Origin: Pelagibacteraceae bacterium
GTDB lineage: Bacteria; Pseudomonadota; Alphaproteobacteria; HIMB59; GCA-002718135
Assembly: GCA_017639935.1 (NCBI GenBank)
Contig: JAGFWP010000010.1
Span: 11,213-75,212 of the forward strand
DNA: 64,000 nt
Direction of reading: 5' to 3'
The position numbers and the translations under genes were made by a program. Positions 1 through 38,782 of this stretch are shown here, in pieces. The notes beneath the pieces were generated by a model. The model ran no database searches, had not been told where the DNA came from, and saw nothing but the letters and a program-made list of their open reading frames with translations. Numbering within the stretch: position 1 is the first letter of the stretch; each line of letters starts with the position of its first letter.

Positions 1-1149
1 AAAAAAAATGAAAAAAAATACTCATCAGTAGAAAAAAAATATAAAAAAATTAAAAAAGAAATGATCGCATCTATGAAAGAAGTTCATTTCAATCCTTCAA
101 CAATTGAAGCCTTAATGGAATCACTTTATGAATTGAATAAAAAATTATTGGTTCGAGAAGGCAGAATGCTTAGAATGGCGATTAATTCAGGTGTTTCAAG
201 AGATTTATTTATAGAAAATTATTTAAATTTTAGTTTTGAAAAAAATTGGATACAAACTCTTCTTTTACAGAAAAATAAATATTGGGAAAAATTTATTAAC
301 AAGAATCATATTGAAATTAATAAGCTCATTAAAGAAATTAAAGAAATCCAAACAGCTACTGAATTGTCACTTAGTGAATTTAGACGCATAGTCAGCACTG
401 TTCAACAAGGAGAGAGATCGGCAAATAGAGCAAAAAAAGAGATGATTGAATCTAATCTGCGTCTTGTTATATCTATTGCAAAAAAATATACAAATAGGGG
501 CCTTCAGTTTTTAGATCTAATACAAGAGGGCAACATTGGACTAATGAAGGCTGTAGATAAATTTGAATATAGAAGAGGCTATAAGTTTTCAACGTATGCT
601 ACTTGGTGGATTAGACAAGCTATTACTCGCTCTATCGCTGATCAAGCACGCACGATTAGAATACCTGTCCATATGATTGAGACAATAAACAAAATTGTAA
701 GAACAACACGTCAAATTATGTCAGAAATAGGAAGAGAGCCAACTCCTCTAGAATTGGCTGAAAGATTGCATATGCCTTTGGATAAAGTAAAAAAGGTTTT
801 AAAAATTGCCAAGGAGCCAATTAGTTTGGCAACACCTGTTGGAGATGAAGAGGATAGTTCGCTTGGTGATTTTATAGAAGACAAGAATGCTTTAATTCCA
901 ATTGAAGCTGCCGTTAAAAGTTCCTTGCGAGATACAACAACAAGAATTCTATCTTCATTAACACCAAGAGAAGAAAGGGTTTTGCGTATGCGTTTTGGAA
1001 TTGGTATGAATAGCGATCACACTTTAGAGGAAGTCGGACAACAATTCAGTGTTACAAGAGAGCGAATTCGCCAAATAGAAGCAAAGGCTCTTAGAAAATT
1101 AAAACATCCAACCAGGGCAAGAAAATTAAAAACCTTTCTTGATGAATAA
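1..1149 (+). CDS. rpoD: RNA polymerase sigma-70 factor RpoD, C-terminal ~380 aa (5' end outside window)
   Basis: The frame is open from base 1, with no stop upstream of the listed Met at 61. Region 2 ([46 protein letters not shown]) and the region 4.2 HTH ([27 protein letters not shown]) are textbook sigma-70. Confidence 0.95.
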
Positions 1150-1976
1150 TGCAGTTAATCCTATTAGGCACTGGTTGTCCTAGCGTTGATCATAAAAGAT
1201 TTGGTCCTGCGAATTTAATCTCAACAAGAAAAACAACCATTTTAGTTGATTGTGGATCAGGTGTGACACAACGATTAAAAGAAGCAAAAGTATCTTCGGC
1301 TAATATTGACGCTTTGTTTTTAACGCATCTTCACTCAGATCATGTTGTTGATCTTTATCAGTTGATAATATCTAGTTGGCATTCCTATAGAACGAAATCT
1401 TGGAGAATTTTTGGCCCCATAGGTACAAAAAAATTTGTAAAAAAATTAATGGATGTATGGAAAGATGAAAGAATGCTGCGAATAAAATATGAGCAACGAT
1501 CTTCCATTCAAGCCTTTAATGTAAAAGTTACTGAGTTTGGCGAATACGGAAAAACAAGAATTAAAGATCTTGCTGTAGAATATTTCACCGTTGATCATAA
1601 ACCGGTAAAATATGCCTATGGTTTTAATTTCTTTCAACAAAAGAAAAAATTGACGATTAGCGGTGATACAAAACCATGTGAAAATTTAATGAAATACGGT
1701 CAATTAGCAGACGTACTCCTTCATGAAGTATTTATTGAAGATGAAATATATTCCTATTTTAGGATGAGAACGAAAAAGACGCTCCATAATGTTAAGGCAT
1801 ATCACACTCCTTCAACAATTGTAGGGAAGGTGGCTAAAATTACTCGCTGTAAAAAACTTGTGTTAACACATTTTGTTCCAACACAATTTAATGAAAAGAA
1901 ATTGATAGATGTTGTAACAAAAGATTTTGGGAAAAAACCTGTTATTGGAAAAGATCTTTTAAAAATAACAATTTAG
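1149..1976 (+). CDS. MBL-fold metallo-hydrolase (RNase Z / beta-lactamase-like)
   Basis: HxHxDH metal motif in LTHLHSDHVVDL. ATGA start/stop overlap with rpoD. Confidence 0.8.
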   Translation: MQLILLGTGCPSVDHKRFGPANLISTRKTTILVDCGSGVTQRLKEAKVSSANIDALFLTHLHSDHVVDLYQLIISSWHSYRTKSWRIFGPIGTKKFVKKLMDVWKDERMLRIKYEQRSSIQAFNVKVTEFGEYGKTRIKDLAVEYFTVDHKPVKYAYGFNFFQQKKKLTISGDTKPCENLMKYGQLADVLLHEVFIEDEIYSYFRMRTKKTLHNVKAYHTPSTIVGKVAKITRCKKLVLTHFVPTQFNEKKLIDVVTKDFGKKPVIGKDLLKITI

Positions 1977-1987
1977 TAGCGCAACTT

Positions 1988-2191
1988 ATGAAAGACTTAA
2001 TATTAACTGATGATAGCTCCAGAGAGTACATCGTTAAGGATCCAAAGCGTTTGTATGACCACTTAATAGAATATCATGCAACGAATGAAAAAGCTGATCA
2101 TAGCGTTCATGAAGAAAACGGTTTTTATTTTACAGTTACTGAGGATTTGTTTAAAAAAGTTGAGAATTTTGTCTTAAATAATAAAATCTAA
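1988..2191 (+). CDS. hypothetical 67-aa protein
   Basis: Intact ORF directly upstream of the tRNA locus. Its last ~30 codons recur as a diverged remnant at 11075-11165 inside attR (..FVLGNNT* versus ..FVLNNKI*), which argues for a real flank gene. Confidence 0.5.
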   Translation: MKDLILTDDSSREYIVKDPKRLYDHLIEYHATNEKADHSVHEENGFYFTVTEDLFKKVENFVLNNKI

Positions 2192-2298
2192 CTCAATCAA
2201 ATATGTAATTGAATCTTAGAATTAAGACGTATATTACGCCTGTTTAGGGCCCTTAGCTCAGTTGGTTAGAGCGCTCCGCTCATAACGGAGTGGTCCGG
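2097..2298 (+). repeat. attL: left 202-bp direct repeat of the island (3' end of the 67-aa gene + intergenic region + tRNA nt 1-52)
   Basis: Aligns without gaps to 11071-11272 at a constant offset of 8974. Hand alignment gives 9 mismatches, all upstream of the tRNA part. Identity ends at ggtccgg|agtg versus ggtccgg|ggtt. Confidence 0.9.
2247..2298 (+). pseudogene. truncated tRNA(CAT) fragment: acceptor 5' strand through the start of the T stem, lacking T loop and 3' end
   Basis: 52 nt identical to 11221-11272 of the intact tRNA, followed by unrelated sequence (agtgagtaacacac...). Confidence 0.9.
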
Positions 2299-2390
2299 AG
2301 TGAGTAACACACAACAATCCTTATTTTCTCCCAATAACCTCCATCGTTTTTCCTGCACACACTTTTAATTCATGCAAATATTATACTTCA

Positions 2391-2410
2391 TTGTGACTGA
2401 AGTGTGACAG
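2391..2410 (+). promoter_or_regulatory. candidate integrase/excisionase arm-type site, left copy (TTGTGACTGAAGTGTGACAG)
   Basis: A 20-mer with an internal GTGAC...GTGAC direct repeat. It recurs in the same orientation at 11045-11064 with 2 mismatches. Both copies lie just inside the island ends. Confidence 0.35.
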
Positions 2411-2413
2411 TAA

Positions 2414-2499
2414 TTTTTTAATTGGGTCCCATTTCTGAACAAGGGTTTTTTTTACCACCCCCGCCCCCCATAATTCCGGGATTGTTGTAACATCCATAA
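2414..2499 (+). repeat. ~86-bp repeat 'A', copy 1 (T-run, AATTGGGTCCCATTTCTGAACAAGGG, T8, C-rich block ACCACCCCCGCCCCCCA, ..AACATCCATAA)
   Basis: Matches 3509-3594 at offset 1095, with 6 mismatches over the 80 nt from AATTGGG to CCATAA. Confidence 0.85.
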
Positions 2500-2512
2500 A
2501 GGGGCGTGCCGT

Positions 2513-3043
2513 TTGATGATTAATTCTCAACATTCCTCGTGGTTGGTGGTAGGATACAATGAAGTGAAGCGATACAAAGAAAAATATAAATTTAGGGACA
2601 AACTCAATGACGAGAAAGACTTTCCCAAAATAAAAAAGATTCCAAAGAATCTTGAAAAGAAGTGGGGCAAAGGAAAGTTTGTTCTACCCTCACCCTTGGA
2701 GGTTAATGCGTTGATGAAAAAAGTGCCAAAGGGGAAACTGACTACCATTAACGAACTGCGAAAAAAGCTGGCCCAAAAACATAAAACCACCACCGCTTGC
2801 CCCATAGTGACGGGTATCTTTGCCTGGATAACAGCTTTTGCGGCGGAAGAGGATGCGAGGGATGGCAAGAAACGCATAACCCCTTATTGGCGCACCCTGA
2901 AGTCCGATGGCAGGATTAATGAAAAGTATCCAGGCGGTCTTCCTTTGCAAAAAAGAATATTAACAAATGAGGGTTATAGAATTTTTTCTAAAGGAAAAAA
3001 TTATTTTGTAGAAGACTTTACCACCAAGTTAACCAAACTATAA
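2513..3043 (+). CDS. MGMT/Atl-like DNA-binding domain protein (alkyltransferase-like; no catalytic PCHR cysteine motif seen)
   Basis: VPKGKLTTINELRKKLA...PYWRTLKSDGRIN...LPLQKRILTNEGY resembles the 6-O-methylguanine methyltransferase DNA-binding fold (..P.GkvtTY.eiA...PwhRVv.sdG..). The start is uncertain: ATG 2513 or in-frame GTG 2564, the latter if repeat B1 is the promoter. Confidence 0.55.
   Translation: MMINSQHSSWLVVGYNEVKRYKEKYKFRDKLNDEKDFPKIKKIPKNLEKKWGKGKFVLPSPLEVNALMKKVPKGKLTTINELRKKLAQKHKTTTACPIVTGIFAWITAFAAEEDARDGKKRITPYWRTLKSDGRINEKYPGGLPLQKRILTNEGYRIFSKGKNYFVEDFTTKLTKL
2526..2556 (+). promoter_or_regulatory. repeat 'B', copy 1: promoter-like unit (-35 TCAACA, 17-nt G-rich spacer, extended -10 TGgTAGGAT)
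   Basis: CTCAACATTCCTCGTGGTTGGTGGTAGGATA is identical to 3060-3090 and differs at 3 positions from 38338-38368. Confidence 0.45.
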
Positions 3044-3059
3044 AATCTATTCCTTTCCC

Positions 3060-3090
3060 CTCAACATTCCTCGTGGTTGGTGGTAGGATA
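3060..3090 (+). promoter_or_regulatory. repeat 'B', copy 2 (identical to copy 1), upstream of the cupin gene
   Basis: The same 31-mer lies 49 nt upstream of ATG 3139. Confidence 0.45.
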
Positions 3091-3138
3091 ATAATAATGT
3101 AATGAAAAAAATTGAAACTACTAATAAGGAGAGACGTT

Positions 3139-3501
3139 ATGTCAGAAACAAAGATATTCCGTAAAAAAGACCTCGACCTTGAGCCTGTGAACGGCATGAA
3201 AACCATCGGTTTGGTCAATGTATCGTTTTCCGATAAACTGGGAGCCGGGATTGGCGTTTTTGAAGATTGCTCTATACCTTGGCATATAACTTATGACGAG
3301 GTCATCTACATACTTGAGGGACAGTTCACGTTACAAGTCGGTGACAAAATATTCGAAGCCGGTCCTGGAGACGTGCTATGGGTGCCACGTAATACAGATA
3401 TTGTTTATATAGCCAAAGAGCGAGTAACATTTTTCTACTCTGTACTACCTGCCGGCAATGCACCATCAACATCCAAACGTATTGATTATACTTCTATGTG
3501 A
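3139..3501 (+). CDS. cupin-domain protein (EutQ-like small cupin)
   Basis: Cupin core DEVIYILEGQFTLQVGDKIFEAGPGDVLWVPRNTDIVY. ATG 3139 is preferred over the TTG at 3112 in the track because of the SD AAGGAGA at 3128-3134. Confidence 0.75.
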   Translation: MSETKIFRKKDLDLEPVNGMKTIGLVNVSFSDKLGAGIGVFEDCSIPWHITYDEVIYILEGQFTLQVGDKIFEAGPGDVLWVPRNTDIVYIAKERVTFFYSVLPAGNAPSTSKRIDYTSM

Positions 3502-3508
3502 GGGAGTT

Positions 3509-3594
3509 TTTTTTAATTGGGTCCCATTTCTGAACAAGGGTTTTTTTTACTACCCCCACCCCCCATAATTCTGGGAATGTCTTAACATCCATAA
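3509..3594 (+). repeat. ~86-bp repeat 'A', copy 2
   Basis: See copy 1. It begins a few nt after the cupin stop codon. Confidence 0.85.
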
Positions 3595-3655
3595 TTGTGC
3601 GTTGATAATCTTCTAATATTTTGTATACGCACCCTTAAATCATAGCGAGGTATCA

Positions 3656-4285
3656 TTGAGTCGTATTTACAGCTTACAGTACCAAGCAATGAAGAAGGAC
3701 ATCGATAAATACTTCGAGGAAAACAAGGAAGAGGTTAACAAAAGTTTTCTAAATCGTGGTTGTAGGATTACTGTCAAGGTCGATAGGCTGGAGTGTTACC
3801 ATAGTAATTCCATTCCCATGAACTGGGAGGACTTCAGTAACCGATACTATGAGTCGAAGGGTAAGTTGTCTAGCGAGACGGGCATTAGCGGCATACACGG
3901 AAGGGTTACTTGGGATAACCTAATTGTGAATGCCGACTACAGCACAACGAGGGACACCTATCTTGAGACAAAAGTGGAAATTTATCTTGATGTTTACAAG
4001 AAGGAGCAGCCGCGTCTTGGTGAAGTAGGAAGTTACAGTATTTTTAATAATCTGGGTGGAGCTAAGAGAATTATTTTCCATCTGGATATACCAAAAAGTA
4101 CTTATGAGTTCCTCGATAAAGCCAAGAGCTCTTGTGACGGGCTTGAGCTCAATGTAAAAGTTGAGCCGCCGAACTTTGAGGAGGATAAATTCGTTCTTCC
4201 CATCGGGCATCAAGATGATGCCAACGGCAAGGTCTACAGGGCATCCTTCGATACTCTTCATAGCTTTGGAAAAAAAACTAACTAA
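3656..4285 (+). CDS. hypothetical 209-aa protein (TTG start)
   Basis: Long ORF with SD GAGG 5 nt upstream of the TTG, followed by a strong intrinsic terminator. I recognise no family. Confidence 0.6.
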   Translation: MSRIYSLQYQAMKKDIDKYFEENKEEVNKSFLNRGCRITVKVDRLECYHSNSIPMNWEDFSNRYYESKGKLSSETGISGIHGRVTWDNLIVNADYSTTRDTYLETKVEIYLDVYKKEQPRLGEVGSYSIFNNLGGAKRIIFHLDIPKSTYEFLDKAKSSCDGLELNVKVEPPNFEEDKFVLPIGHQDDANGKVYRASFDTLHSFGKKTN

Positions 4286-4290
4286 TATTC

Positions 4291-4314
4291 AAGGGGTCTT
4301 CACCGACCCCTTTT
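4291..4314 (+). terminator. rho-independent terminator
   Basis: AAGGGGTC-ttcacc-GACCCCTT followed by a T-run, immediately after the 209-aa ORF. Confidence 0.8.
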
Positions 4315-4426
4315 ACTTCAGCTGGGGAATAGTGTTGATAGCAAAACACACTGCATTGACGACAGATTGATAGCAGATTTATTTACAACACAATCACTCC
4401 CCAGTACTAAAGCATATAATAATATT

Positions 4427-4456
4427 TATGGTTATGATTATGATTATGATTATGGT
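4427..4456. repeat. hexanucleotide tandem repeat (TATGRT)x5
   Basis: tatggt tatgat tatgat tatgat tatggt. It abuts the stop codon of the minus-strand DUF1376 gene. Confidence 0.9.
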
Positions 4457-4836
4457 TAGTATTGCCTTGGTAATGCGTCCGCAAGCCTCTTATCCTTAAA
4501 GACTCTTTTGTCATATCTTGCATTTGCAGCCTCTCTTGCCTTCTCGCTTCTCTCTAGAGCTTTCCTCCATGTTTGCTCCAGACGTTTCTGCTTGAATGTA
4601 CCATCACTTAAGTCAAAGAGGGGCGCAATCTCCTCCTTAATTTTTCGCCATTTCCTTGGGGTTACACGCAGCAGGCGTGGTAGTATCTTATCATCATCCT
4701 TGTAGGGGCGGCAGTTGTTATTCCAAGTGTGAAAGAGGATGAGGATGTAGCACCCTTGTGCCTCCAAGGACAGATGCAGCGTATCCGCAATGTGGTCGGA
4801 GGGAAAGAAGTGCAGACAGGGTACCTTGCTGCTCAT
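4456..4836 (-). CDS. DUF1376 (YdaU-like) phage-associated protein
   Basis: FFPSDHIADTLHLSLEAQGCYILILFHTWNN...DDDKILPRLLRVTPRKWRKIKEEIAPLF...KQKRLEQ matches the DUF1376 pattern found in prophage replication modules. Confidence 0.75.
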   Translation of the reverse strand: MSSKVPCLHFFPSDHIADTLHLSLEAQGCYILILFHTWNNNCRPYKDDDKILPRLLRVTPRKWRKIKEEIAPLFDLSDGTFKQKRLEQTWRKALERSEKAREAANARYDKRVFKDKRLADALPRQY

Positions 4837-4918
4837 ATTTTAACAAATTTTTTCATATTTTTTACTTTATTTGTATTAATTAATTTTAAAATAGAACAGT
4901 TTTAGAACCTTTGCCTAA

Positions 4919-4939
4919 ACACCCTCTTAATCTTTGGGG
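4919..4939 (+). promoter_or_regulatory. 'ACCCTCTTAA' box, copy 1 (CACCCTCTTAATCTTTGGGGG)
   Basis: Shares ACCCTCTTAAnCTTT(G) with 5177-5194 and 8327-8342. No clear downstream gene. Confidence 0.3.
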
Positions 4940-5176
4940 GAAATCGGCTTGGATATCATATCGTTGACCTCTTCACATTTTTTTATCTAATTATTTTTCT
5001 TCTTATTTAAAAAATGCAATATAAATCAATAAAGCGAGAATCAGCAATTTACCATAATCAAGGTCAAATGCCGTTCCCTCGCCAAATTTTTTTTCAAAAT
5101 ATTTTTTCATCATTATTCCCTTTGCTTTAACCATAGAACTATATCCTCTACGGTGCCATATGTTAACCCAAAAATA

Positions 5177-5210
5177 ACCCTCTTAACCTTTGGGAGAACG
5201 GTGGTATAAT
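5177..5210 (+). promoter_or_regulatory. 'ACCCTCTTAA' box + extended -10 (TGgTATAAT) promoter, 7 nt before ATG 5218
   Basis: ACCCTCTTAACCTTTGGGAGAACGGTGGTATAAT-taaaaat-ATG. The -10 to ATG distance implies a leaderless or near-leaderless mRNA. Confidence 0.5.
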
Positions 5211-5217
5211 TAAAAAT

Positions 5218-6063
5218 ATGAGCAAGAAAATTTTTCTCATTACAGGTGGTACTAATGGCATTGGTTTTCAAGCTGCTCAAGAAATTGCAAAGACAAAAAA
5301 AACAATAATCATAACTGGCAAGAATGCTTTAAAAGGAAAAAATAAATTAAATGAAATTAGAAGAAATACAGGCAATGAAGATGTTCATTTTATCAATGGT
5401 GATTTGTCATCACAAATAGAAATTAAAAGCATTGCGGAATTTGTAAAGAGAAAATTTTCTAATATCGATGTACTGATAAATAATGCTGGAGCCGCTTTTT
5501 TTAAGAGAGAAGAAAGTGTTGATGGCATAGAAAAAACTTTTGCCATTAATCATTTAGCATATTTTTTGTTAACGGGTTTGCTTCTTCCGGTGATTTTGGA
5601 TTCCCATAAACCAAGGATTGTAAACGTTGCTTCATCTGTTCATAAAGGTATGGATTTAAATTTTGATGATATTGAAATGAGAAAGACATATGATGGGTAT
5701 AGAGCCTATCGTCAATCAAAGTTGTGCAACATATTGTTCACTTATTTTTTATCAAATAAACTAAAGTCAAAAGGCGCAACGGTTAACTGCTTGCATCCTG
5801 GATTTGTTAATACAGGTCTGGGCCATAATAACAGCGGTTTAGTGAAGTTTTTCTTTATGCTGTCCCAGAAACTTTTTGGCAAAAGTCCTCAGGAAGGCGC
5901 AGAAACCAGTATTTATTTGGCAATGAAGAAAGATTTAGAGGAAGTTACTGGAAAATATTTTCACAAGCATGAACCATTAACCAGCTCTGGGCAAACATAC
6001 AACCAAAACACACAGAAAAGGCTTTGGAACTTAAGTGAAAAATATACAAATTTTTCATATTAA
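5218..6063 (+). CDS. short-chain dehydrogenase/reductase (retinol-dehydrogenase-like SDR)
   Basis: ITGGTNGIG cofactor motif, NNAG, and catalytic YRQSK. Confidence 0.9.
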   Translation: MSKKIFLITGGTNGIGFQAAQEIAKTKKTIIITGKNALKGKNKLNEIRRNTGNEDVHFINGDLSSQIEIKSIAEFVKRKFSNIDVLINNAGAAFFKREESVDGIEKTFAINHLAYFLLTGLLLPVILDSHKPRIVNVASSVHKGMDLNFDDIEMRKTYDGYRAYRQSKLCNILFTYFLSNKLKSKGATVNCLHPGFVNTGLGHNNSGLVKFFFMLSQKLFGKSPQEGAETSIYLAMKKDLEEVTGKYFHKHEPLTSSGQTYNQNTQKRLWNLSEKYTNFSY

Positions 6064-6106
6064 GAATGTAAGAGACCTTTTAACTGTATAATGGCGGGAT
6101 ATTAAA

Positions 6107-6472
6107 ATGTACTATGGTTTTGGTGCCAATTTAACACTTGCAATGCACTTTGCTTTTATAGTTTTTGTTATATTTGGAGCGTTGATTCTCTTTGCATCAA
6201 AAAAAATTGCTTTTATTCATATTCCTTCTGTTATTTATGGAGCATATATTGAATTATCTCATTCTATCTGTCCATTAACATATTTAGAAAATTGGTTTTT
6301 AAAGAAGGCGGGTTTGAAAAGTTATCCAAGCAGTTTTATTGAACAATATTTAATGCCCATTGTCTATCCTGACAATCTAACTGCTGAATTACAATTTTAT
6401 TTAGGGTTTTTACTTATTTTCACTAATATTGTTATTTACGTACTGGCTATAAAATCTTTCAAGAGAAGTTAG
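6107..6472 (+). CDS. small integral membrane protein (DUF2784-like, CPLT motif)
   Basis: Several hydrophobic segments and SHSICPLTYLENW. The family assignment is from memory. Confidence 0.6.
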   Translation: MYYGFGANLTLAMHFAFIVFVIFGALILFASKKIAFIHIPSVIYGAYIELSHSICPLTYLENWFLKKAGLKSYPSSFIEQYLMPIVYPDNLTAELQFYLGFLLIFTNIVIYVLAIKSFKRS

Positions 6473-6546
6473 TGCTGCGTATTCATCTATTCATTCTTGA
6501 AACAATGGTGCTATAAAACTAATTCAGTTTTCATAAATATTATGAA

Positions 6547-7359
6547 ATGACAAAAATGTTATTAATCCTAACTTATGCCATTGGTATTTATGCACTGCTT
6601 GTCTTGTTCCTTTTCTTTTTTCAAAGGTCTTACCTCTATTTCCCCTCAAAAGAGAAAATTGACGTTTCGTATTTTATTGATAGTGGATTAAAAGAGATTG
6701 AACTCACCACATCGGATGGATTAGTTCTAAAATCTTGGTTTAAAAAACCGAGAACGCAAGATGGATATACAATCCTCATCTTTCATGGCAACGCAGGACA
6801 TGTCGGACATAGGGTTGAGAAATTTAAACGTTTCATCACTGCTGGCTATGGTTTTTTATTTCTTGAATACAGAGGTTATGGCGGCAATCCAGGCAAGCCT
6901 ACGGAGGGGGGTCTATATTATGATGCTCTGTCGGCATTGGAGTTTTTATCAAAACAACAAATATCCTCTGATAAAACTATTCTTTACGGTGAATCCTTAG
7001 GATGCGGAGTAGCAGTAAAATTGTCCTCTGAGGCTGCCTTTGCTGCCACGGTTTTAGAGGCCCCCTTTACGTCCATCGCTGACGTTGCTCAGCGTCATTT
7101 TTGGTATCTACCTGCTAAATGGTTGGTGTTAGACCGTTATGACATTCTGAGGATAATAGGAAACACTAAATCACCGCTGCTGGTGATACACGGAGAAAAA
7201 GACAACATCATTAACATATCATTAGGAAAAAAGGTATTTGATGCTGCTCCTGAACCAAAAGAGGCTTTATTTGTTCCCAATGCCGGGCACAACAATCTCT
7301 TTGAATTTAATGTTGAAGAAAAGTTATTGATTTTTTTAGAAAAACAAAAAAACTATTAA
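6547..7359 (+). CDS. alpha/beta-fold hydrolase with N-terminal membrane anchor
   Basis: Nucleophile elbow GESLGCG, IFHGNAG, HGEKDNII and GHNN, giving a Ser-Asp-His layout. Confidence 0.85.
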   Translation: MTKMLLILTYAIGIYALLVLFLFFFQRSYLYFPSKEKIDVSYFIDSGLKEIELTTSDGLVLKSWFKKPRTQDGYTILIFHGNAGHVGHRVEKFKRFITAGYGFLFLEYRGYGGNPGKPTEGGLYYDALSALEFLSKQQISSDKTILYGESLGCGVAVKLSSEAAFAATVLEAPFTSIADVAQRHFWYLPAKWLVLDRYDILRIIGNTKSPLLVIHGEKDNIINISLGKKVFDAAPEPKEALFVPNAGHNNLFEFNVEEKLLIFLEKQKNY

Positions 7360-7593
7360 TTACACTTTAATCTAATTTTCCAACTAATTACTCCTCTTCA
7401 TAATTTTACCTTAATTACATTATGATTATGCTTGATTCAGTTTTTAAGAATCAATTGTTAATATGGCATTACTTGGGCGTATCTTACTTTTCATATTACT
7501 CCTCCTGTTGATAGTCACCGCTGGTACGTCCTTGGATGCCTAGAAAAACTTTTATTTATAGATTAAGTATATTCATAATGATAAAGAAAACTT

Positions 7594-7740: not shown

Positions 7741-7745
7741 GAAAA

Positions 7746-8218: not shown

Positions 8219-8326
8219 TCTCTTTTATCATTATATATTTCATGAAATATTAAAGAAGGAAAACTGGTTTAAGCAACATAATACAATAATATTAACAAGT
8301 TTGTGGATTGCTTATACCTAAAAAAA

Positions 8327-8360
8327 ACCCTCTTAAACTTTTGTTTAATGGTGGTATGAT
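8327..8360 (+). promoter_or_regulatory. 'ACCCTCTTAA' box + extended -10 (TGgTATGAT) promoter, 5 nt before ATG 8366
   Basis: ACCCTCTTAAACTTTTGTTTAATGGTGGTATGAT-aaatt-ATG has the same architecture as 5177-5210. Confidence 0.5.
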
Positions 8361-8365
8361 AAATT

Positions 8366-9688: not shown

Positions 9689-10087
9689 TCATTCCCATAC
9701 CAGTTCACCAATGTTATTATTATTAAATTCCGAGCAGGTTCTGCTTACAGAAAAAATTCTTCCCTCTCTGTCAAATTTAATCTCTTCAATGTTCTTTGAA
9801 TCATCTGAGATAACCCAATACCCCAGAAAATTATTTTTCACGTCATACCAGGAAAAAGTATGAATGGTTTTTTTAAACTTATTCTTTTTTGTCTCATAGT
9901 TTGATAATTTGTACCGGGAGGAATCATAATTGTTTCGAATGGCAATTTTATTGTCAAAGTCAAAGACAATGTAGGTTGCGGACAGTTCGCACTTTATCCT
10001 GCCTGAAAAACGAAAATCCTCTGCTGCATCAATTGAATATGACAAAAGAAAAGATGCTGCAATAACGACTAAAGCCAAGCTTCTCAT
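9689..10087 (-). CDS. secreted hypothetical protein (132 aa)
   Basis: Signal peptide MRSLALVVIAASFLLSYSIDAAED. A 4-nt start/stop overlap with the integrase gene suggests co-translation. Confidence 0.6.
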   Translation of the reverse strand: MRSLALVVIAASFLLSYSIDAAEDFRFSGRIKCELSATYIVFDFDNKIAIRNNYDSSRYKLSNYETKKNKFKKTIHTFSWYDVKNNFLGYWVISDDSKNIEEIKFDREGRIFSVSRTCSEFNNNNIGELVWE

Positions 10088-11031
10088 AGCTTTTTCACTA
10101 TATCCTCTGCCTTGAGATGTGTGTAGCGAAAAAGCATTCGCACATCCTTATGTCCAGATATTAAGGTTACCTCTGGAATACTTAAGCCTTTCTCAAAGAG
10201 CCGTGAGATAGCCTCGTGGCGTAAATCATGGAAGTGCAGGTCTTTGATATTTCCTTTTTTCTTCAACCTGTCCCAAGCAAGCCTCACTGCATTGGCAGAC
10301 ATGGGGAAGGGGAGTTGCGTGTTCTCTAGAATATACAAAGCTCTTTTAGTAAGAGGTATTGTGCGTGGATGACCGTTCTTGGTTTTTGGAATTAATAAAG
10401 TCTGTCCCTTGATGTGTTCCGGTTTGATGTTTAGAATTTCACCACGCCTCATCGCTGTTTCAATGGCCACTTCAATGATGTGTCTTAGTGTTTGTTGAGG
10501 GTAGTTTCCCTTAACCAGAAAGTTGTATTCGTATTCCGTTAATCTTCTTTCTCTTCTATTGTTAAGTTTAGGTTTTTGAATACTCTTAATGGGATTAGGA
10601 ATATTAAAGCCCCATTCCTTATTTGCTATAGAATACAAGTGTTGCACAACACAAAGCTCTCTTAATAACGTTGCCGGCTTAACTTTCTGCAATCTTTTAT
10701 CTCGATATTTTGCAAAATATTCAGATGTTATGTGCGATACTGGTTTGTTCACGAAACCTTCTCTCATAAAAGCTTTGAGAATTATTGTTTCATTAAACCC
10801 AGCTCGTTTCTTTGGGAGAATCTCATTTATGTAGCGATTGATGAGCTGTCTAAGGGAATATTTTTTACACTTGTTTTTGAGAACCAAGAAACCATCATCA
10901 ATTTTAGTTTCTTCTTCACGAGCCCATTTTGTAGCTGATTCTTTGGTGCGAAATGTTTGTGTTATTAAAGGGCAATCCCTTCGCCTAACTTGAGCCTGCC
11001 ATTTATTATTTCTTCTGCGGATTGATGCCAT
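10084..11031 (-). CDS. int: tyrosine recombinase / phage-type integrase
   Basis: C-terminal catalytic region AMRRGEIL...HDLRHEAISRL...ISGHKDVRMLFRYTHL (R..HxxR..Y). It lies adjacent to attR. Confidence 0.93.
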   Translation of the reverse strand: MASIRRRNNKWQAQVRRRDCPLITQTFRTKESATKWAREEETKIDDGFLVLKNKCKKYSLRQLINRYINEILPKKRAGFNETIILKAFMREGFVNKPVSHITSEYFAKYRDKRLQKVKPATLLRELCVVQHLYSIANKEWGFNIPNPIKSIQKPKLNNRRERRLTEYEYNFLVKGNYPQQTLRHIIEVAIETAMRRGEILNIKPEHIKGQTLLIPKTKNGHPRTIPLTKRALYILENTQLPFPMSANAVRLAWDRLKKKGNIKDLHFHDLRHEAISRLFEKGLSIPEVTLISGHKDVRMLFRYTHLKAEDIVKKL

Positions 11032-11044
11032 TCTACACTCCTTG

Positions 11045-11070: not shown

Positions 11071-11272
11071 ATCACAGCGTTCATGAAGAAAACGGTTTTT
11101 ATTTTACAGTTACTGAGGATTTGTTTAAAAAAGTTGAGAATTTTGTCTTAGGTAATAACACTTAACTCAATCAAATATGTAATTGAAACTTAGAATTAAG
11201 ATGTATATTAAGCCTGTTTAGGGCCCTTAGCTCAGTTGGTTAGAGCGCTCCGCTCATAACGGAGTGGTCCGG
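11071..11272 (+). repeat. attR: right 202-bp direct repeat (island-borne copy fused to the native tRNA 3' end)
   Basis: See attL. It carries a diverged remnant of the 67-aa gene C-terminus. Confidence 0.9.
11183..11209 (+). promoter_or_regulatory. candidate tRNA promoter (TTGAAA ... TATATT) inside the duplicated segment
   Basis: The -35/-10-like hexamers end ~11 nt before tRNA position 1. The left copy has TTGAAT...TATATT. Confidence 0.4.
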
Positions 11273-11297
11273 GGTTCAAATCCCTGAGGGCCCACCA
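11221..11297 (+). tRNA. tRNA with CAT anticodon (elongator Met, or Ile2/lysidine type), CCA encoded
   Basis: A full cloverleaf can be drawn: GGGCCCT/AGGGCCC acceptor, GCTC/GAGC D stem, CTCCG-CTCATAA-CGGAG anticodon arm, CGGGG-TTCAAAT-CCCTG T arm. The acceptor stem (C4, C5) and overall sequence resemble E. coli ileX as I recall it, so Ile2 is plausible. Confidence 0.9.
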
Positions 11298-11365
11298 TTA
11301 TCAATTACCCTGCCGCCAACTGCGAGGAATATATATAAGTAATAAAAAACGAGGTGAGAGAAAAT

Positions 11366-36222: not shown

Positions 36223-36237
36223 CGTGGTTGGTGGTAG
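36223..36237 (+). repeat. partial copy of repeat 'B' (CGTGGTTGGTGGTAGA)
   Basis: Shares the G-rich core with 2538-2553. It lies in the convergent gap between the AKR gene and the LacI gene. If active as a promoter it would read antisense into the regulator gene. Confidence 0.3.
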
Positions 36238-37547: not shown

Positions 37548-38330
37548 ATGAGTATAACAGATGAAGGGCATTACGGACCAAAACAGCTAAATTTACTAAA
37601 GACTGTATGGGGTGAAGGATTTCTTTCACCAGGCGGAACAGATGAAATAGATGAAGTTATGAAAGGGATTGATGCTTCGGGTAAAACTGTTCTTGATATC
37701 GGTTGCGGATGTGGCGGAGCAGCCATACATCTTATCAAAAATCATGGTGCAAAATCAGTATTGGGAATTGATACTGAATCATTGGTTATTCAACGCGCTG
37801 AAGAACTTACGGAAAAGTATGATCTTTCCAGTCTTGCGCATTTCCGCTGTGTCAAACCCGGACCTCTTGATGTTCCAGATGAGTCAGTTGATCTTGTGTT
37901 TAGCAAGGAGGTATTTCTTCATATTTCAGATAAAGATGATCTATTAAAAGACATTTATCGAGTACTCAAGCCCGGTGGCTTGGTTGCTGCAAGTGATTGG
38001 ATGCGAATCGATGATAATCCTCCTTCGATGCAAATGCAGGAATATATCGCAGCCGAGGGGCTTGATATGTACATGTGTTCACTTAAACGTTATGAGCAAG
38101 TATTAAAGAAAGCTGGTTTTATTGATATTGTTATTAAAGACCGTAACGCATGGTATCTTGGTAAAGCAAAAAAAGAACTTGCGGATATTGAAGGTCCTCT
38201 CAATAAACAAGTCATCGACGCTATCGGCCCAGAAGAAACGGTTGGAGCCATCGATATTTGGAAAAAATTAATTGGAGTCCTTGAAATTGGAGAACATCGT
38301 CCAGGACTTTTTAAAGCTGTTAAAAAATAA
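37548..38330 (+). CDS. class I SAM-dependent methyltransferase, phosphoethanolamine N-methyltransferase-like
   Basis: VWGEGFLSPGG...VLDIGCGCGG...GIDTE...DLVFSKEVFLHISDKDDLLKDIYRVLKPGG...AGF..V...DRN follows the PEAMT-type pattern. The subfamily call is from memory. Confidence 0.8.
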   Translation: MSITDEGHYGPKQLNLLKTVWGEGFLSPGGTDEIDEVMKGIDASGKTVLDIGCGCGGAAIHLIKNHGAKSVLGIDTESLVIQRAEELTEKYDLSSLAHFRCVKPGPLDVPDESVDLVFSKEVFLHISDKDDLLKDIYRVLKPGGLVAASDWMRIDDNPPSMQMQEYIAAEGLDMYMCSLKRYEQVLKKAGFIDIVIKDRNAWYLGKAKKELADIEGPLNKQVIDAIGPEETVGAIDIWKKLIGVLEIGEHRPGLFKAVKK

Positions 38331-38337: not shown

Positions 38338-38368
38338 CTCAATATTCATCGTGGTTGTTGGTAGGATA
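38338..38368 (+). promoter_or_regulatory. repeat 'B', copy 3 (CTCAATATTCATCGTGGTTGTTGGTAGGATA), 3 nt before ATGATG of the GFA gene
   Basis: 28 of 31 positions match the island copies. The TAGGAT -10 lies 4 nt upstream of ATG 38372, implying a leaderless transcript. Confidence 0.45.
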
Positions 38369-38371: not shown

Positions 38372-38782
38372 ATGATGCGAAAAAAAATATCTTCTAAAAT
38401 TGCTAAATGCCTATGCGGTGGAATTAAAATAAAGGTAAAGGAAAAACTCCGCCATGTTGTTAATTGTCATTGCTCGCAGTGTATGAAAACACATGGAAAT
38501 TATGCCGCCTATACGGCGTGTCTTGAAGACGATGTCATCTTCATTAATAAAAAAACTCTGAAATGGTTTAAGTCATCTAATATTGCAAAAAGAGGTTTTT
38601 GCTCTGTTTGCGGCGCAAGCATGTTTTATAAACGGCTGAAGAGTAGAAATATTAGTATTGCAGCTGGGATGTTTTCTAATCCCACCAAACTGAAGACTCA
38701 TTCCAATATCTTTATAAAAGGTAAATTGGATTATTATAGATTGGATTCAAGAATGCCTAAATTTGACAAGAGAAGCAAATGA
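38372..38782 (+). CDS. GFA/CENP-V family zinc protein (glutathione-dependent formaldehyde-activating enzyme-like)
   Basis: Cys pattern CLCGG...CHCSQC...CSVCG. ATG 38372 is preferred over GTG 38351, which lies inside the repeat. Confidence 0.8.
   Translation: MMRKKISSKIAKCLCGGIKIKVKEKLRHVVNCHCSQCMKTHGNYAAYTACLEDDVIFINKKTLKWFKSSNIAKRGFCSVCGASMFYKRLKSRNISIAAGMFSNPTKLKTHSNIFIKGKLDYYRLDSRMPKFDKRSK

What the first reader, a model, noticed from the sequence alone, without database searches (positions are those of the whole stretch)
2526..3090. Conserved 31-nt promoter-like 'B' element with a GGTTGGTGGTAGG spacer, found inside and outside the island
CTCAACATTCCTCGTGGTTGGTGGTAGGATA occurs identically at 2526-2556 and 3060-3090. 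A third copy with 3 changes lies at 38338-38368, 27 kb away and directly before the GFA gene, and a partial copy lies at 36223-36237. The element reads as -35 TCAACA, a 17-nt spacer and an extended -10 TGgTAGGAT. At 38368 the -10 ends 3 nt before ATGATG, which predicts a leaderless mRNA. Conservation of the spacer is much stronger than a promoter needs. The spacer has four GG runs (GGttGGtGGtaGG), formally a two-tetrad G-quadruplex motif reminiscent of the thrombin aptamer, so it may be a regulator-binding or structure-forming site. The partial copy at 36223 points antisense into the 3' end of the LacI regulator gene.
Basis: partly seen in the sequence, partly recalled or inferred. Interest (0 to 1): 0.55.

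Follow-up and report, generated by a model that had tools for sequence, protein, structure and literature searches.

The report
Portable promoter-like element at cassette junctions
The repeated 31-base element is real and occurs in hundreds of near-identical copies in marine metagenomes, where it lies just upstream of start codons and marks the point at which single genes are swapped between genomic islands of a SAR11-like ocean bacterium. It most likely acts as a portable promoter, and nothing supports a G-quadruplex role.

Summary
The 31-mer is exact at 2526 and 3060, has 3 changes at 38338, and its core recurs at 36223 (chance expectation 0).

The same element, often 31/31 identical, occurs in six marine genome assemblies and in at least 120 marine metagenome contigs. 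It is absent from 2.9 million viral contigs. I found 258 copies in 201 distinct downstream contexts. None lies in a long same-strand reading frame. Arrays are co-oriented (125 of 128 neighbouring pairs), with median spacing 953 bp.

An ATG starts 4-7 nt after TAGGAT in half of the contexts. In 32 families it opens a full-length protein.

Homology between loci breaks at the element. 35 downstream genes are each joined to unrelated upstream DNA, and 27 upstream sequences to unrelated downstream genes. Positions 16-31 travel with the downstream gene. Positions 2-15 never do.

Arrays lie in islands that insert at tRNA genes and carry a tyrosine integrase. The window's 8,974-bp island has an empty-site allele in the population.

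Best reading: a sigma-70-type, extended -10 promoter giving leaderless or short-leader mRNAs, which also serves as the cassette exchange point. The G-quadruplex idea fails. No transcription start has been mapped, and the recombination mechanism is unknown.

The parts
2526..2556 (+). B1, canonical 31-bp element. -35-like TCAACA is 2527-2532, TGG is 2547-2549, -10-like TAGGAT is 2550-2555.
   Evidence: Exact match. The hexamer is polymorphic, TAGGAT or TAAGAT, in near-identical strains L156, L159 and L136.
2564..3043 (+). Cassette gene 1, an MGMT-like DNA-binding-domain protein. It starts at GTG 2564, 8 nt after the hexamer.
   Evidence: Weak, sub-threshold Pfam match to DNA_binding_1 (E 1.3e-4, 22.2 bits vs 27 cut-off). 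The start aligns with the ATG of homologues in L067 and L053. The same cassette follows a different upstream flank in L084.
3060..3090 (+). B2, canonical 31-bp element. An ATG-TAA start-stop lies at +7 (3097-3102).
   Evidence: Exact match. Homology between the window and strain L154 ends at 3087, inside B2.
3139..3501 (+). Cassette gene 2, an EutQ-type cupin, with an AAGGAG Shine-Dalgarno sequence and a predicted 5' UTR of about 42 nt.
   Evidence: Pfam EutQ and Cupin_2. The B-plus-cupin block is 96-97% identical in L008, L116 and L132 behind unrelated upstream DNA, and homology starts at the 5' end of the element.
37548..38330 (+). Methyltransferase cassette upstream of B3. In other loci it is itself preceded by a B copy.
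   Evidence: tblastn 89-91% identity to L068, L107 and L054. In L068 and L107 it is followed by a B copy and then by different genes.
38338..38368 (+). B3, a variant copy with 3 mismatches, one of which breaks the second GG run. It lies outside the island.
38375..38782 (+). GFA-family cassette gene. ATG 38375 lies 7 nt after TAGGAT, and an alternative ATG 38372 lies at +4.
   Evidence: Pfam GFA matches residues 10-115 to profile positions 4-114. Homologues in L144 and L140 (75-77% identity) are also preceded by B with the ATGATG arrangement.
36223..36237 (+). B4, a right-half-only relic (element positions 13-27) between two convergent genes.
   Evidence: The hexamer is TAGATT and there is no -35 half.
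11299..11330 (-). Weak B-like relic (ATTCCTCGcaGTTGGcGGcAGGgTA) next to the 3' end of tRNA-Met. It is also present in the allele without the island.
   Evidence: nhmmer E = 2.6e-4, sequence, and L155 covers it.
2097..2301 (+). Left copy of the 205-bp direct repeat that bounds the island (sequence upstream of tRNA-Met plus its 5' part).
   Evidence: Repeat D3, 95% identical to 11071-11275. L155 joins window 2301 directly to 11071.
11071..11297 (+). Right copy of the direct repeat, running into the intact tRNA-Met (11221-11297).
10084..11031 (-). Tyrosine integrase of the island.
   Evidence: Pfam Phage_integrase and Int_N. NCBIfam scores are far below the Xer and integron-integrase cut-offs. 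Homologues (31-43% identity) lie next to tRNAs in B-bearing loci.
5166..5213 (+). Comparator promoter-like element: CTCTTAAC, 12 nt, GGTGGTATAAT, 7 nt, then ATG 5218. Its ends match B but its spacer differs.
   Evidence: Repeat D15, sequence, called by the sigma-70 scan with TG, contexts.
8316..8363 (+). Second copy of the comparator element, before ATG 8366 (LigT-like gene).
2414..2507 (+). 'A' repeat, 94 bp, just upstream of B1. The second copy is at 3509-3602, after the cupin gene.
   Evidence: Repeat D6, 90% identity. A 470-bp insertion in strains L158 and L159 sits at the end of the second copy.

Best explanation
B is a portable promoter module that forms the 5' boundary of individually exchangeable cargo genes (cassettes). 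These cassettes lie in islands that insert at tRNA genes and carry a tyrosine integrase. The host is a low-GC, SAR11-like marine alphaproteobacterial lineage.

Proposed mechanism (inferred):
- RNA polymerase with the housekeeping sigma factor uses TCAACA (-35), a 17-nt spacer and the extended -10 TGG-TAGGAT.
- Transcription starts 5-8 nt after the hexamer.
- In many cassettes that point is the A of the start codon, giving a leaderless mRNA. In others a short 5' UTR with its own Shine-Dalgarno sequence follows.

Shown:
- The element is also the point at which cassettes are exchanged. Positions 16-31 are inherited with the downstream gene and positions 2-15 are not.

Proposed reason for the even conservation of about 26 bp, spacer included (inferred):
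- It comes from this junction role. An uninterrupted block of identity is what short-homology recombination needs, and repeated exchange keeps the copies alike.
- It does not come from a G-quadruplex.
For: Layout. The element has the correct 17-nt spacing and TG at -15/-14.

Position.
- It lies inside a long same-strand reading frame in 0 of 154 contexts and in 1 on the opposite strand. A co-oriented upstream gene (found within 200 nt in 95 of 154 contexts) ends a median 37 nt before it.
- 125 of 128 neighbouring copies are co-oriented.

Start codons.
- ATG counts at +4, +5, +6 and +7 are 12, 17, 26 and 46 of 201 contexts, against about 3.6 expected per offset (p = 3e-36 for +7).
- 32 unrelated ORFs of at least 90 aa start there. 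Pfam domains begin at residues 2-10, including the N-terminal methylation motif of type IV pilin-like proteins.
- The nearby ATG persists in 37% of copies whose hexamer has no Shine-Dalgarno-like core.

No other promoter.
- Terminator hairpins directly abut the 5' end of the element, for example AGCGGGAATAATTTCCCGCTTTTAAA|CTCAAC in L029, L131, L150 and L116.

Hexamer variation.
- The commonest variant is TAGAAT, closer to TATAAT.
- B1 is TAGGAT or TAAGAT in near-identical strains.

Related elements.
- Elements with the same ends but other spacers of the same length exist: window 5166 and 8316, L108, L036 and L069.

Junction role.
- Ends of homology blocks cluster at the element.
- B-gene-B modules are shared between different neighbourhoods.
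- There are 35 downstream and 27 upstream families with unrelated partners.
- Non-consensus alleles at positions 16-31 are shared across contexts 44 times and differ 20 times. At positions 2-15 the count is 0 shared and 46 differing (Fisher p = 4e-15).
- Strain L154 diverges from the window inside B2.
Against: - No transcription start has been mapped, so promoter activity is inferred.
- The hexamers match the consensus only 4/6 and 4/6, and a standard scan does not call the site.
- The last two -10 positions are the least conserved part of the element (A29 and T30 each 66%). T at that last position is normally among the best-kept bases of a -10, while the 'spacer' here is 85-100% conserved. 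That profile is unusual for a promoter.
- About half of the ATGs at +4..+8 open ORFs shorter than 30 aa.
- About a third of copies have no co-oriented ORF of at least 60 aa within 200 nt, and some face convergent genes.
- B1 would give a leaderless mRNA that starts with GTG. From general knowledge, that is a poor substrate for leaderless translation.
- TAGGAT also contains AGGA at a spacing suited to a Shine-Dalgarno sequence, so part of the start-codon signal could be translational.
Confidence: 0.55

Rival explanations
1. B is mainly a site-specific recombination site of an integron-like cassette system. A dedicated recombinase would cut near positions 15-18 (..TCGT|GG|TTGG..). Each cassette would then consist of a right half-site, a gene and a left half-site. 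The promoter-like features would be secondary or co-opted.
For: - Arrays are co-oriented, with spacing of about 1 kb.
- B-gene-B modules are shared between different contexts.
- Allele linkage changes sharply between positions 15 and 18.
- Conservation is even over about 26 bp, the size of a recombinase core site.
- CTCAAC ... GTTGGTG loosely resembles the integron boxes RYYYAAC and GTTRRRY (direct reading).
- Tyrosine integrases recur in the same islands.
Against: - The element has no dyad symmetry beyond CAAC/GTTG (direct reading).
- Neither strand forms a hairpin, and there is no inverted partner upstream.
- GTTGGTG fails GTTRRRY at two positions.
- The only recurrent recombinase is a generic integrase found next to tRNA genes, scoring far below the integron-integrase and Xer cut-offs.
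- Partial copies break at different positions, from 7 to 20.
- The sample holds no precise presence/absence pair for a single cassette.
- Only three families carry informative right-half variants, so the sharp boundary rests on few independent events.
Confidence: 0.15
2. B is not a promoter. It is an intercistronic translation-initiation region in read-through transcripts. AGGA inside TAGGAT would serve as the Shine-Dalgarno sequence 5-8 nt before the start codon, and the upstream block would be an RNA-level signal.
For: - The AGGA-to-ATG spacing fits a ribosome-binding site.
- A nearby ATG is more frequent when the hexamer keeps AGGA, GGAG or AGGG (54% against 37%).
- Many upstream genes end less than 20 nt before B with no terminator.
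- Arrays are co-oriented like operons.
Against: - 37% of hexamers without a Shine-Dalgarno-like core still have the nearby ATG.
- The commonest variants (TAGAAT, TAAGAT, TAGTAT) destroy AGGA while keeping the TAnnnT pattern.
- Terminators abut B in several loci, so those genes need their own promoter.
- The RNA has no structure beyond that of shuffled sequence (z = +0.45).
- Nothing matches in Rfam.
- A ribosome-binding site does not explain 24 conserved bases upstream of it.
Confidence: 0.12
3. B is a promoter that also contains the binding site of a dedicated factor. The candidates are an island- or lineage-specific repressor or activator, or an alternative (ECF-like) sigma factor reading TCAAC, 16 nt, GGTA. 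The 'spacer' would then be conserved because a protein reads it.
For: - The spacer is 85-100% conserved, whereas the related elements at 5166 and 8316 keep only their ends.
- A -35 containing AAC is typical of ECF-type promoters (general knowledge).
- A short CAAC-N10-GTTG dyad spans the spacer (direct reading).
- Some loci carry a TTGATTTGAATCAA palindrome just downstream.
Against: - No candidate regulator or sigma gene recurs in the B-bearing loci. The recurrent families are the integrase, a primase-polymerase-like protein, an AlpA-like helix-turn-helix protein and cargo enzymes.
- Conservation is flat, not concentrated in half-sites.
- The cargo genes are functionally unrelated, so a shared regulon has no obvious logic.
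Confidence: 0.12
4. The GGTTGGTGGTAGG spacer forms a two-tetrad G-quadruplex that regulates the promoter.
For: The canonical copy formally has four GG runs with loops of 1-2 nt. The only literature match for the 15-mer is a paper on thrombin-aptamer-type quadruplex oligonucleotides.
Against: - The fourth run is the least conserved part of the core (G27 68%, G28 62%).
- The loop bases T18 and T19 (97%) are more conserved than the G runs.
- B3 in this window breaks the second run.
- TAGAAT, TAAGAT and TAGTAT variants are common and are still followed by start codons.
- Related elements with G-poor spacers keep the same layout.
- From general knowledge, two-tetrad quadruplexes are only marginally stable and must compete with duplex DNA.
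Confidence: 0.03

Closest known systems
Putative mobile promoters / promoter reuse in prokaryotes (Nijveen, Matus-Garcia and van Passel 2012, PMC3575422; found)
   Same: Near-identical upstream sequence sits in front of many non-homologous genes. It is found in several genomes and is associated with mobile DNA.
   Different: B is only 31 bp long with sharp edges. It occurs in co-oriented arrays with one copy per gene. It is demonstrably the recombination junction, and its geometry fits leaderless mRNAs. It has not been described for SAR11-like plankton in any paper I could search.
Integron cassette arrays (attC sites; clusters of attC sites without an integrase, called CALINs)
   Same: Single-gene units of about 1 kb lie in co-oriented arrays separated by one conserved site. 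The same gene is found next to different neighbours. The site splits into a part that travels with the upstream unit and a part that travels with the downstream unit.
   Different: B has no hairpin or palindromic attC structure. It is 31 bp, against at least 57 bp for attC. It fails the GTTRRRY core. No integron integrase is present. The site carries promoter-like signals and lies at the 5' end of each gene, whereas integron cassettes are mostly promoterless. From my own knowledge (Cury et al. 2016), integrons have not been reported in Alphaproteobacteria; I did not re-check this here.
tRNA-targeting integrative islands of marine plankton (tycheposons in Prochlorococcus, bioRxiv 10.1101/2020.12.28.424599; 'additive' flexible genomic islands)
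   Same: The setting is the same: a tyrosine integrase next to a tRNA gene, partial tRNA repeats at the borders, variable cargo, occupied and empty alleles coexisting in one population, and replication-type genes (primase-polymerase-like, DUF1376).
   Different: Those descriptions concern movement of whole islands. The tycheposon preprint does not contain the word 'promoter'; I did not search it for a cassette junction. Homology between the integrases here and tycheposon integrases was not tested.
Leaderless promoters of Alphaproteobacteria, for example Caulobacter, where a sizeable minority of mRNAs are leaderless (own knowledge)
   Same: The start codon lies 5-8 nt after a -10-like hexamer with no Shine-Dalgarno sequence.
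   Different: Here one fixed sequence is reused in front of dozens of unrelated genes, and no transcription start has been mapped.
Xer-dependent dif and pdif modules (own knowledge)
   Same: A conserved site of about 30 bp flanks mobile gene modules.
   Different: B lacks the 11-6-11 layout with partly palindromic arms. Its copies are direct repeats, not alternating inverted ones.

Membership tests
Sigma-70-type promoter with extended -10 | -35-like and -10-like hexamers 17 +/- 1 bp apart, with TG one base upstream of the -10 | tested here: met
   TCAACA, 17 nt, TGG-TAGGAT. The match is only 4/6 plus 4/6, below the 9/12 threshold of the simple scan.
Sigma-70-type promoter with extended -10 | Intergenic position, oriented toward a downstream gene | tested here: met
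   0 of 154 copies lie inside a long same-strand ORF. ATG starts are strongly peaked at +4..+7. About a third of copies lack a co-oriented ORF of at least 60 aa within 200 nt.
Sigma-70-type promoter with extended -10 | Hexamers conserved and spacer sequence free to vary | tested here: not met
   The spacer is 85-100% conserved, while A29 and T30 of the -10 are 66%. Related elements with other spacers of the same length do exist.
Sigma-70-type promoter with extended -10 | Transcription starts 5-9 nt downstream of the -10 | not testable with these tools
   No transcript 5'-end data are available.
Leaderless mRNA | Start codon at, or within a few nt of, the transcription start, with no Shine-Dalgarno sequence | tested here: inconclusive
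   The geometry fits in about half of the contexts. 32 unique ORFs of at least 90 aa start there; for the 10 scanned with Pfam, domains begin at residues 2-10. The transcription start is unmapped, and AGGA in the hexamer could act as a Shine-Dalgarno sequence in read-through RNA.
Leaderless mRNA | AUG start codon (general knowledge: leaderless translation depends strongly on AUG) | tested here: inconclusive
   B3 and most metagenome copies use ATG. B1 uses GTG 2564.
Integron attC site | Imperfect inverted repeats (R''/L'' and L'/R') that fold into a hairpin, 57-141 nt long | tested here: not met
   No fold beyond that of shuffled sequence on either strand. No inverted partner lies within 150 nt upstream. 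The element is 31 bp.
Integron attC site | R' core GTTRRRY and inverse core RYYYAAC | tested here: not met
   GTTGGTG fails at the last two positions. CTCAAC fits YYYAAC (direct reading).
Integron attC site | Integron integrase (IntI) associated with the array | tested here: not met
   The island integrase scores 58 bits against a 220-bit cut-off for the nearest Xer/integron-type model, and no IntI model is hit. Only generic integrases next to tRNA genes recur.
Integron attC site | Co-oriented arrays of single-gene cassettes that occur in different orders | tested here: met
   125 of 128 pairs are co-oriented, with median spacing 953 bp. Cassettes are shared behind unrelated neighbours.
G-quadruplex motif | Four G runs kept across copies, with the runs more constrained than the loops | tested here: not met
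   G27 and G28 are 68% and 62% conserved, while loop bases T18 and T19 are 97%. B3 lacks the second run.
G-quadruplex motif | Physical folding (CD, thioflavin T) | not testable with these tools
   Needs an experiment.
Putative mobile promoter | Highly similar upstream sequence before non-homologous genes, within and between genomes | tested here: met
   201 distinct downstream contexts. 31/31 identity occurs in assemblies labelled Pelagibacteraceae, uncultured Alphaproteobacteria single-cell genomes, MarineAlpha5 and a Poribacteria MAG; a Marinimicrobia MAG copy is 29/31.
Phage single-subunit RNA polymerase promoter (T7-like) | Many copies in phage genomes that encode the polymerase | tested here: not met
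   No related copy in 2.9 million viral contigs: three unrelated coding hits and then none.
Xer dif/pdif site | 11-6-11 layout with partly palindromic arms | tested here: not met
   No arm symmetry beyond CAAC/GTTG (direct reading).
tRNA-integrating island (the setting of the element) | Integrase next to a tRNA gene, direct repeats at the borders, empty-site allele | tested here: met
   205-bp repeats at 2097-2301 and 11071-11275, integrase at 10084-11031, tRNA-Met at 11221-11297. L155 is the exact empty site.

The most novel reading that the evidence does not exclude
B is the recombination site of a previously unrecognised gene-cassette capture and shuffling system that works without an integron. 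It operates inside tRNA-integrating islands of abundant, genome-streamlined marine Alphaproteobacteria, a class in which, to my knowledge, integrons have not been reported. Each 31-bp site would also serve as a ready-made promoter for leaderless mRNA, so any captured gene is expressed at once without a shared upstream promoter.
Probability: 0.2. Interest if true: 0.85.

Novelty: new variant of a known kind. Interest (0 to 1): 0.65.

Why it matters
Streamlined ocean bacteria such as SAR11 and its relatives carry hypervariable islands. How those islands gain, lose and express genes is poorly understood.

This element gives that process a concrete and searchable handle. A single 31-bp string finds the boundaries of hundreds of individually exchangeable genes in marine metagenomes.

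If it is a promoter for leaderless mRNA, it explains how a gene can be expressed as soon as it lands in a new genome with almost no regulatory machinery. If it is also a recombination site, it would be a cassette system analogous to integrons but mechanistically different.

In practice, the element breaks short-read assemblies. Many contigs end at it, so it marks places where island content is under-recovered. It could also serve as a PCR or capture anchor for sampling the flexible gene pool of this lineage.

Tried and rejected
- Chance or assembly artefact: rejected. Shuffles give 0 expected matches, and independent assemblies carry the element.
- Coding sequence: rejected. The reading frames through B1 and B3 differ, and no long same-strand ORF covers any copy (1 of 154 on the opposite strand).
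- Structured RNA or a known RNA family: rejected. No Rfam hit, and the fold is no better than shuffled sequence.
- attC-like hairpin: rejected.
- Phage promoter or phage cargo: rejected. Two scans of the viral contig collection found nothing related.
- Sigma-54, sigma-32 and EcfG-type consensus sequences: compared by eye, none fits.
- dif-like 11-6-11 site: no arm symmetry.
- Derivation from a tRNA 3' end. The reverse complement shares ATCCTACC with a tRNA-Gln T-arm. The match is limited to 8 nt and lies in the wrong orientation for an attachment-site repeat, so I dropped it.
- DNA-uptake sequence: unlikely. Copies are confined to islands and are not spread through the 64-kb window.
- Precise single-cassette presence/absence pairs: searched for, none found in this sample.
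- Mapping a unique crossover point from partial copies: breakpoints are heterogeneous and the search itself biases them toward the centre.
- Literature: searches for the sequence, SAR11 with 'leaderless', SAR11 with 'gene cassettes', SAR11 with 'integron', tycheposons and HIMB59 islands found no description of this element.
- Exact taxonomy of the window's organism: could not be fixed.
Full report
1. THE OBSERVATION

The 31-mer CTCAACATTCCTCGTGGTTGGTGGTAGGATA is exact at 2526-2556 (B1) and 3060-3090 (B2). It recurs with three changes (C6T, C11A, G21T) at 38338-38368 (B3). None is expected in shuffled sequence. Its core, positions 13-27, recurs at 36223-36237 (B4). The flanks of the four copies do not align, so the unit is the 31-mer itself. 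A profile built later finds one more weak, inverted relic at 11299-11330(-), directly after tRNA-Met.

Some details needed correcting:
- The ATG at 2559 is out of frame. Gene 1 starts at GTG 2564, 8 nt after TAGGAT, and this codon aligns with the ATG start of homologues.
- At B3 the two ATGs lie 4 and 7 nt after the hexamer.
- At B2 an ATG-TAA lies at +7, and the cupin gene starts 49 nt after the hexamer behind a real AAGGAG.

2. THE SETTING

The window has 32% G+C. It carries rpoD, several LacI-controlled sugar-transporter operons, RNase P RNA and one tRNA-Met.

B1 and B2 lie at the left end of an island:
- It is bounded by a 205-bp direct repeat, 2097-2301 and 11071-11275. The repeat consists of the region upstream of tRNA-Met plus the 5' part of the tRNA.
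- A tyrosine integrase (10084-11031) lies at the right end.
- A DUF1376 gene and miscellaneous cargo lie in between.

A look-up of the neighbouring core protein returned the same chromosomal site from six metagenomes:
- L157 is 100% identical to window 1-4976.
- L155 joins window 2301 directly to 11071. This is the empty site, so the island is an 8,974-bp insertion.
- L154 follows the window up to 3087, inside B2, and then diverges completely.
- L158 and L159 carry an extra 470 bp after the second 'A' repeat.

Occupied, empty and cassette-variant alleles therefore coexist in one population.

3. THE ELEMENT ELSEWHERE

Genomes. A scan of one genome per species for the 18-nt core gave 30 loci. 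About 20 are chance or coding hits. Twelve matches in ten loci carry the element, nine of them 31/31 identical, in AT-rich intergenic DNA with unrelated flanks. The assemblies are labelled:
- Pelagibacteraceae (SI047_bin126);
- uncultured Alphaproteobacteria single-cell genomes (AG-464-G03, with several copies on one contig, and AG-414-E06);
- MarineAlpha5_Bin3;
- two metagenome-assembled genomes labelled Marinimicrobia and Poribacteria. These two may be mis-binned contigs: the Marinimicrobia contig shares 1.6 kb at 81% identity with AG-464-G03. That is inference.

Metagenomes.

Viral contigs. Two scans of 2.9 million contigs found nothing related.

Literature. The sequence is absent from the searchable papers. 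The only hit for the 15-mer is a paper on aptamer-type quadruplex oligonucleotides.

Copy count. Allowing up to 8 mismatches, the window and 129 loci (130 sources) hold 258 copies in 201 distinct downstream contexts. Many contigs end at the element, as expected when a repeat breaks short-read assembly.

4. ANATOMY ACROSS COPIES

- The element lies inside a long same-strand open frame in 0 of 154 contexts, and in 1 on the opposite strand.
- In 95 of 154 contexts a co-oriented upstream ORF ends within 200 nt, at a median distance of 37 nt.
- 78 loci (counting the window) hold two or more copies.
- 125 of 128 neighbouring pairs have the same orientation.
- Median spacing is 953 bp, interquartile range 583-1545, with up to 8 copies in 11 kb.

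Conservation was measured on the 79 copies not picked up by the exact scan strings. It is flat and high from position 2 to 26 (71-100%, mostly above 85%). It has a sharp 5' edge and decays over positions 27-31: G27 68%, G28 62%, A29 66%, T30 66%. Neither strand folds better than shuffled sequence. No inverted partner lies within 150 nt. Nothing matches Rfam.

5. RELATION TO START CODONS

An ATG begins 4, 5, 6 or 7 nt after TAGGAT in 12, 17, 26 and 46 of 201 contexts. About 3.6 are expected per offset. Nearly all the +4 cases read ATGATG, so they also have an ATG at +7.

32 unrelated complete ORFs of at least 90 aa start at +5..+8. Ten of them were scanned against Pfam: glyoxalase, a tRNA-editing domain, an alpha/beta hydrolase, a type IV pilin-like protein, a GNAT acetyltransferase, an ADP-ribosylglycohydrolase, an epimerase, a peroxiredoxin, an EamA transporter and GFA. 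In most, the domain begins at residues 2-10, so these are true N-termini.

Other copies have an ATG 15-50 nt downstream preceded by AGGAG-type sequences. The host therefore uses Shine-Dalgarno sequences when there is a leader.

Cautions:
- About half of the nearby ATGs open ORFs shorter than 30 aa.
- About a third of copies have no co-oriented ORF of at least 60 aa within 200 nt.
- Some copies face convergent genes at array edges.

6. PROMOTER OR RIBOSOME-BINDING SITE

The layout TCAACA, 17 nt, TGG-TAGGAT is that of an extended -10 promoter. The match to consensus is only 8/12, however, and a standard scan does not call it.

Four arguments favour a promoter:
- Terminator hairpins abut the 5' end of the element in several loci (AGCGGGAATAATTTCCCGCTTTTAAA|CTCAAC in L029, with variants in L131, L150 and L116). 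Any promoter must then lie within the element.
- The commonest hexamer variant is TAGAAT. Others are TAAGAT, TAGTAT and TATTAT. They keep the TAnnnT pattern and destroy AGGA. B1 itself is TAGGAT or TAAGAT in near-identical strains.
- 37% of hexamers without a Shine-Dalgarno-like core still have the nearby ATG, against 54% with one.
- Related elements share the ends but not the spacer, at the same length. Examples are window 5166-5213 (CTCTTAAC, 12 nt, GGTGGTATAAT, 7 nt, ATG 5218) and 8316-8363, L108, L036, and L069 (CTCAACA, aaaagggttttt, GGTGGTAGGAA).

One argument goes against a plain promoter. The conservation profile is inverted, with the spacer better kept than the 3' half of the -10.

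I conclude that promoter function is likely but unproven. AGGA may add translational help in read-through transcripts.

7. THE ELEMENT IS THE CASSETTE JUNCTION

In an all-against-all comparison of loci, the ends of homology blocks pile up at the two edges of the element. Of 519 internal block ends, 88 fall at its 5' edge and 73 at positions 20-31. Many blocks run from the 5' edge of one copy, through a gene, to about 27 nt into the next copy. These are B-gene-B modules shared between otherwise different neighbourhoods.

- 35 downstream families are each joined to at least two unrelated upstream sequences.
- 27 upstream families are each joined to at least two unrelated downstream sequences.
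- From this window, the cupin cassette occurs behind four different upstream sequences and the MGMT-like cassette behind two. The methyltransferase cassette is followed by B and then three different genes.

Allele linkage within the element:
- Among families that share the downstream gene, non-consensus alleles at positions 16-26 are shared across contexts 10 times and differ 7 times.
- At positions 27-31 they are shared 34 times and differ 13 times.
- At positions 2-15 they are shared 0 times and differ 46 times (Fisher p = 1.5e-7 and 4e-15).
- Among families that share the upstream sequence, right-half alleles almost never travel with it (8 shared, 88 differing).

So the right half belongs to the downstream gene, and the junction falls around positions 15-18. 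This rests on few independent right-half variants (three families). Partial copies break at varied positions. No precise single-cassette presence/absence pair was found.

8. THE ISLANDS

Homologues of the window's integrase (31-43% identity) occur in eight other B-bearing loci. Where a tRNA was found it lies next to them: tRNA-Arg in L029 and tRNA-Phe in L098. tRNA-Ser, -Thr, -Gln and tmRNA also occur in B-bearing loci. The integrase is a generic tyrosine recombinase, far below the curated cut-offs for Xer or integron-type models.

Other recurrent families are a primase-polymerase-like protein and an AlpA-like helix-turn-helix protein (named from N-terminal sequence, not scanned), plus cargo enzymes. 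No second recombinase recurs.

In several loci an intact tRNA 3' end is followed by a conserved segment of about 70 nt and then by B reading inward. B arrays are therefore the cargo compartment of tRNA-integrating islands. B3 and B4 lie outside the island in this window. They look like a two-cassette fragment (methyltransferase, B3, GFA; 36% G+C against 32% around it) and a scar.

9. THE G-QUADRUPLEX IDEA

- The fourth GG run is the least conserved part of the core.
- The loop bases T18 and T19 are more conserved than any G run.
- B3 lacks the second run.
- Variants lacking a run are common and are still followed by genes.
- Related elements with G-poor spacers keep the same layout.

The idea is not supported.

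10. MOST LIKELY MECHANISM

Shown:
- The element is an intergenic, co-oriented, near-invariant 31-bp block.
- It lies 5-8 nt before many true start codons.
- It is the exchange point of single-gene cassettes in tRNA islands.

Inferred:
- It is an extended -10 promoter whose transcripts start at or just before the start codon. Each cassette thereby becomes an expression unit independent of its neighbours.
- Why are about 26 bp conserved evenly? I favour the junction role. Recombination on such short homology needs uninterrupted identity, and each exchange re-copies the site, so the whole block stays alike.
- From general knowledge, SAR11-type genomes recombine at high rates and many lack mismatch repair. 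That would make 31-bp anchors usable.

A dedicated site-specific recombinase, or a protein that reads the spacer, cannot be excluded.

11. COMPARISON WITH WHAT IS KNOWN

The closest concept is the 'putative mobile promoter' (PMC3575422). The closest architecture is an integron cassette array, but the defining attC features and the integron integrase were tested and not met. The closest setting is the tRNA-targeting islands of marine plankton such as tycheposons, whose description does not mention promoters.

I found no description of this element.

12. VERDICT

I rate it a new variant of a known kind, with interest 0.65. It is a real, abundant and sharply defined feature. It makes cassette turnover in an abundant ocean lineage directly traceable and testable. 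Its promoter activity and recombination mechanism are still inferences.

Noticed in passing
window 2097-11297: An 8,974-bp island is inserted at tRNA-Met. It is bounded by a 205-bp direct repeat that duplicates the 5' part of the tRNA and about 150 bp upstream of it, not the usual 3' part. Occupied (L156-L159), empty (L155) and cargo-variant (L154) alleles coexist, with flanks 98.4-100% identical.
   Followed up: partly
window 2414-2507 and 3509-3602: The 94-bp 'A' repeat (90% identity) has a C-rich tract (ACCACCCCCGCCCCCC). Gene callers place small minus-strand ORFs (38 and 32 aa) on it. In strains L158 and L159 a 470-bp insertion carrying a 109-aa membrane-like ORF sits exactly at the end of the second copy, so it is a second kind of junction element.
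   Followed up: partly
window 5166-5213 and 8316-8363; also L108 and L030: A second promoter-like family, CCCTCTTAAC, 12 nt, GGTGGTAT(A/G)AT, has an ATG 5-7 nt downstream (SDR gene at 5218, LigT-like gene at 8366). It shares its ends with B, but its spacer varies.
   Followed up: partly
window 12787-12823, 19134-19170, 29939-29975, 37347-37383: Four copies of TTGACAAGTAAAACGTTTTATTAAT. This is a strong -35 overlapping an AAAACGTTTT palindrome, next to LacI-type regulators and sugar ABC-transporter operons. It is probably a shared LacI-family operator-promoter.
   Followed up: no
window 3097-3102: A minimal ATG-TAA start-stop ORF lies exactly 7 nt after the B2 hexamer and is conserved in L116 and L132. 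Across all copies, about half of the ATGs near the element open ORFs shorter than 30 aa. These could be leader peptides, or remnants left by recombination inside ATGAAAAAA-type 5' ends.
   Followed up: partly
L037, L038, L080, L092, L099, L117 and others (metagenome loci): A conserved segment of about 70 nt (..cacataggcgtcacttgcgaac.tatttttg) links the 3' end of different intact tRNAs to an inward-facing B copy whose first base is A or T. It is probably the island arm next to the attachment site.
   Followed up: no
L093, L065, L037, L094, L082 (metagenome loci): Here B is followed by a TTGATTTGAATCAA palindrome. In L093 and L065 a second, degenerate B-like sequence follows about 40 nt downstream. 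This may be a tandem promoter with an operator-like dyad.
   Followed up: no
L040, L045, L048, L067, L094, L140, L143 (metagenome loci): A recurrent GT-rich upstream module (..gtgccgtgcgtgccgtgtgccaaagaacg) directly abuts B in several unrelated loci. Its function is unknown.
   Followed up: no
window 15135-16799 and 12623-12756: An 821-bp-period tandem duplication (69-91% identity) lies within an ABC-permease region. Its ends are repeated in inverted orientation 3-4 kb upstream (88-nt arms, 86% complementary).
   Followed up: no
window 7106-7136; L144 7354: The B-like string ..TGGTTGGTGTTAG.. lies inside the alpha/beta-hydrolase gene (6547-7359) and is conserved with its homologue in L144. I take it as a chance resemblance within coding sequence.
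   Followed up: partly
L105 and L041 (metagenome loci): Tandem paralogous type IV pilin-like genes (MNRKGFTLIELL..) are each preceded by their own B copy. Whole B-plus-gene units have therefore duplicated and diverged in place.
   Followed up: no
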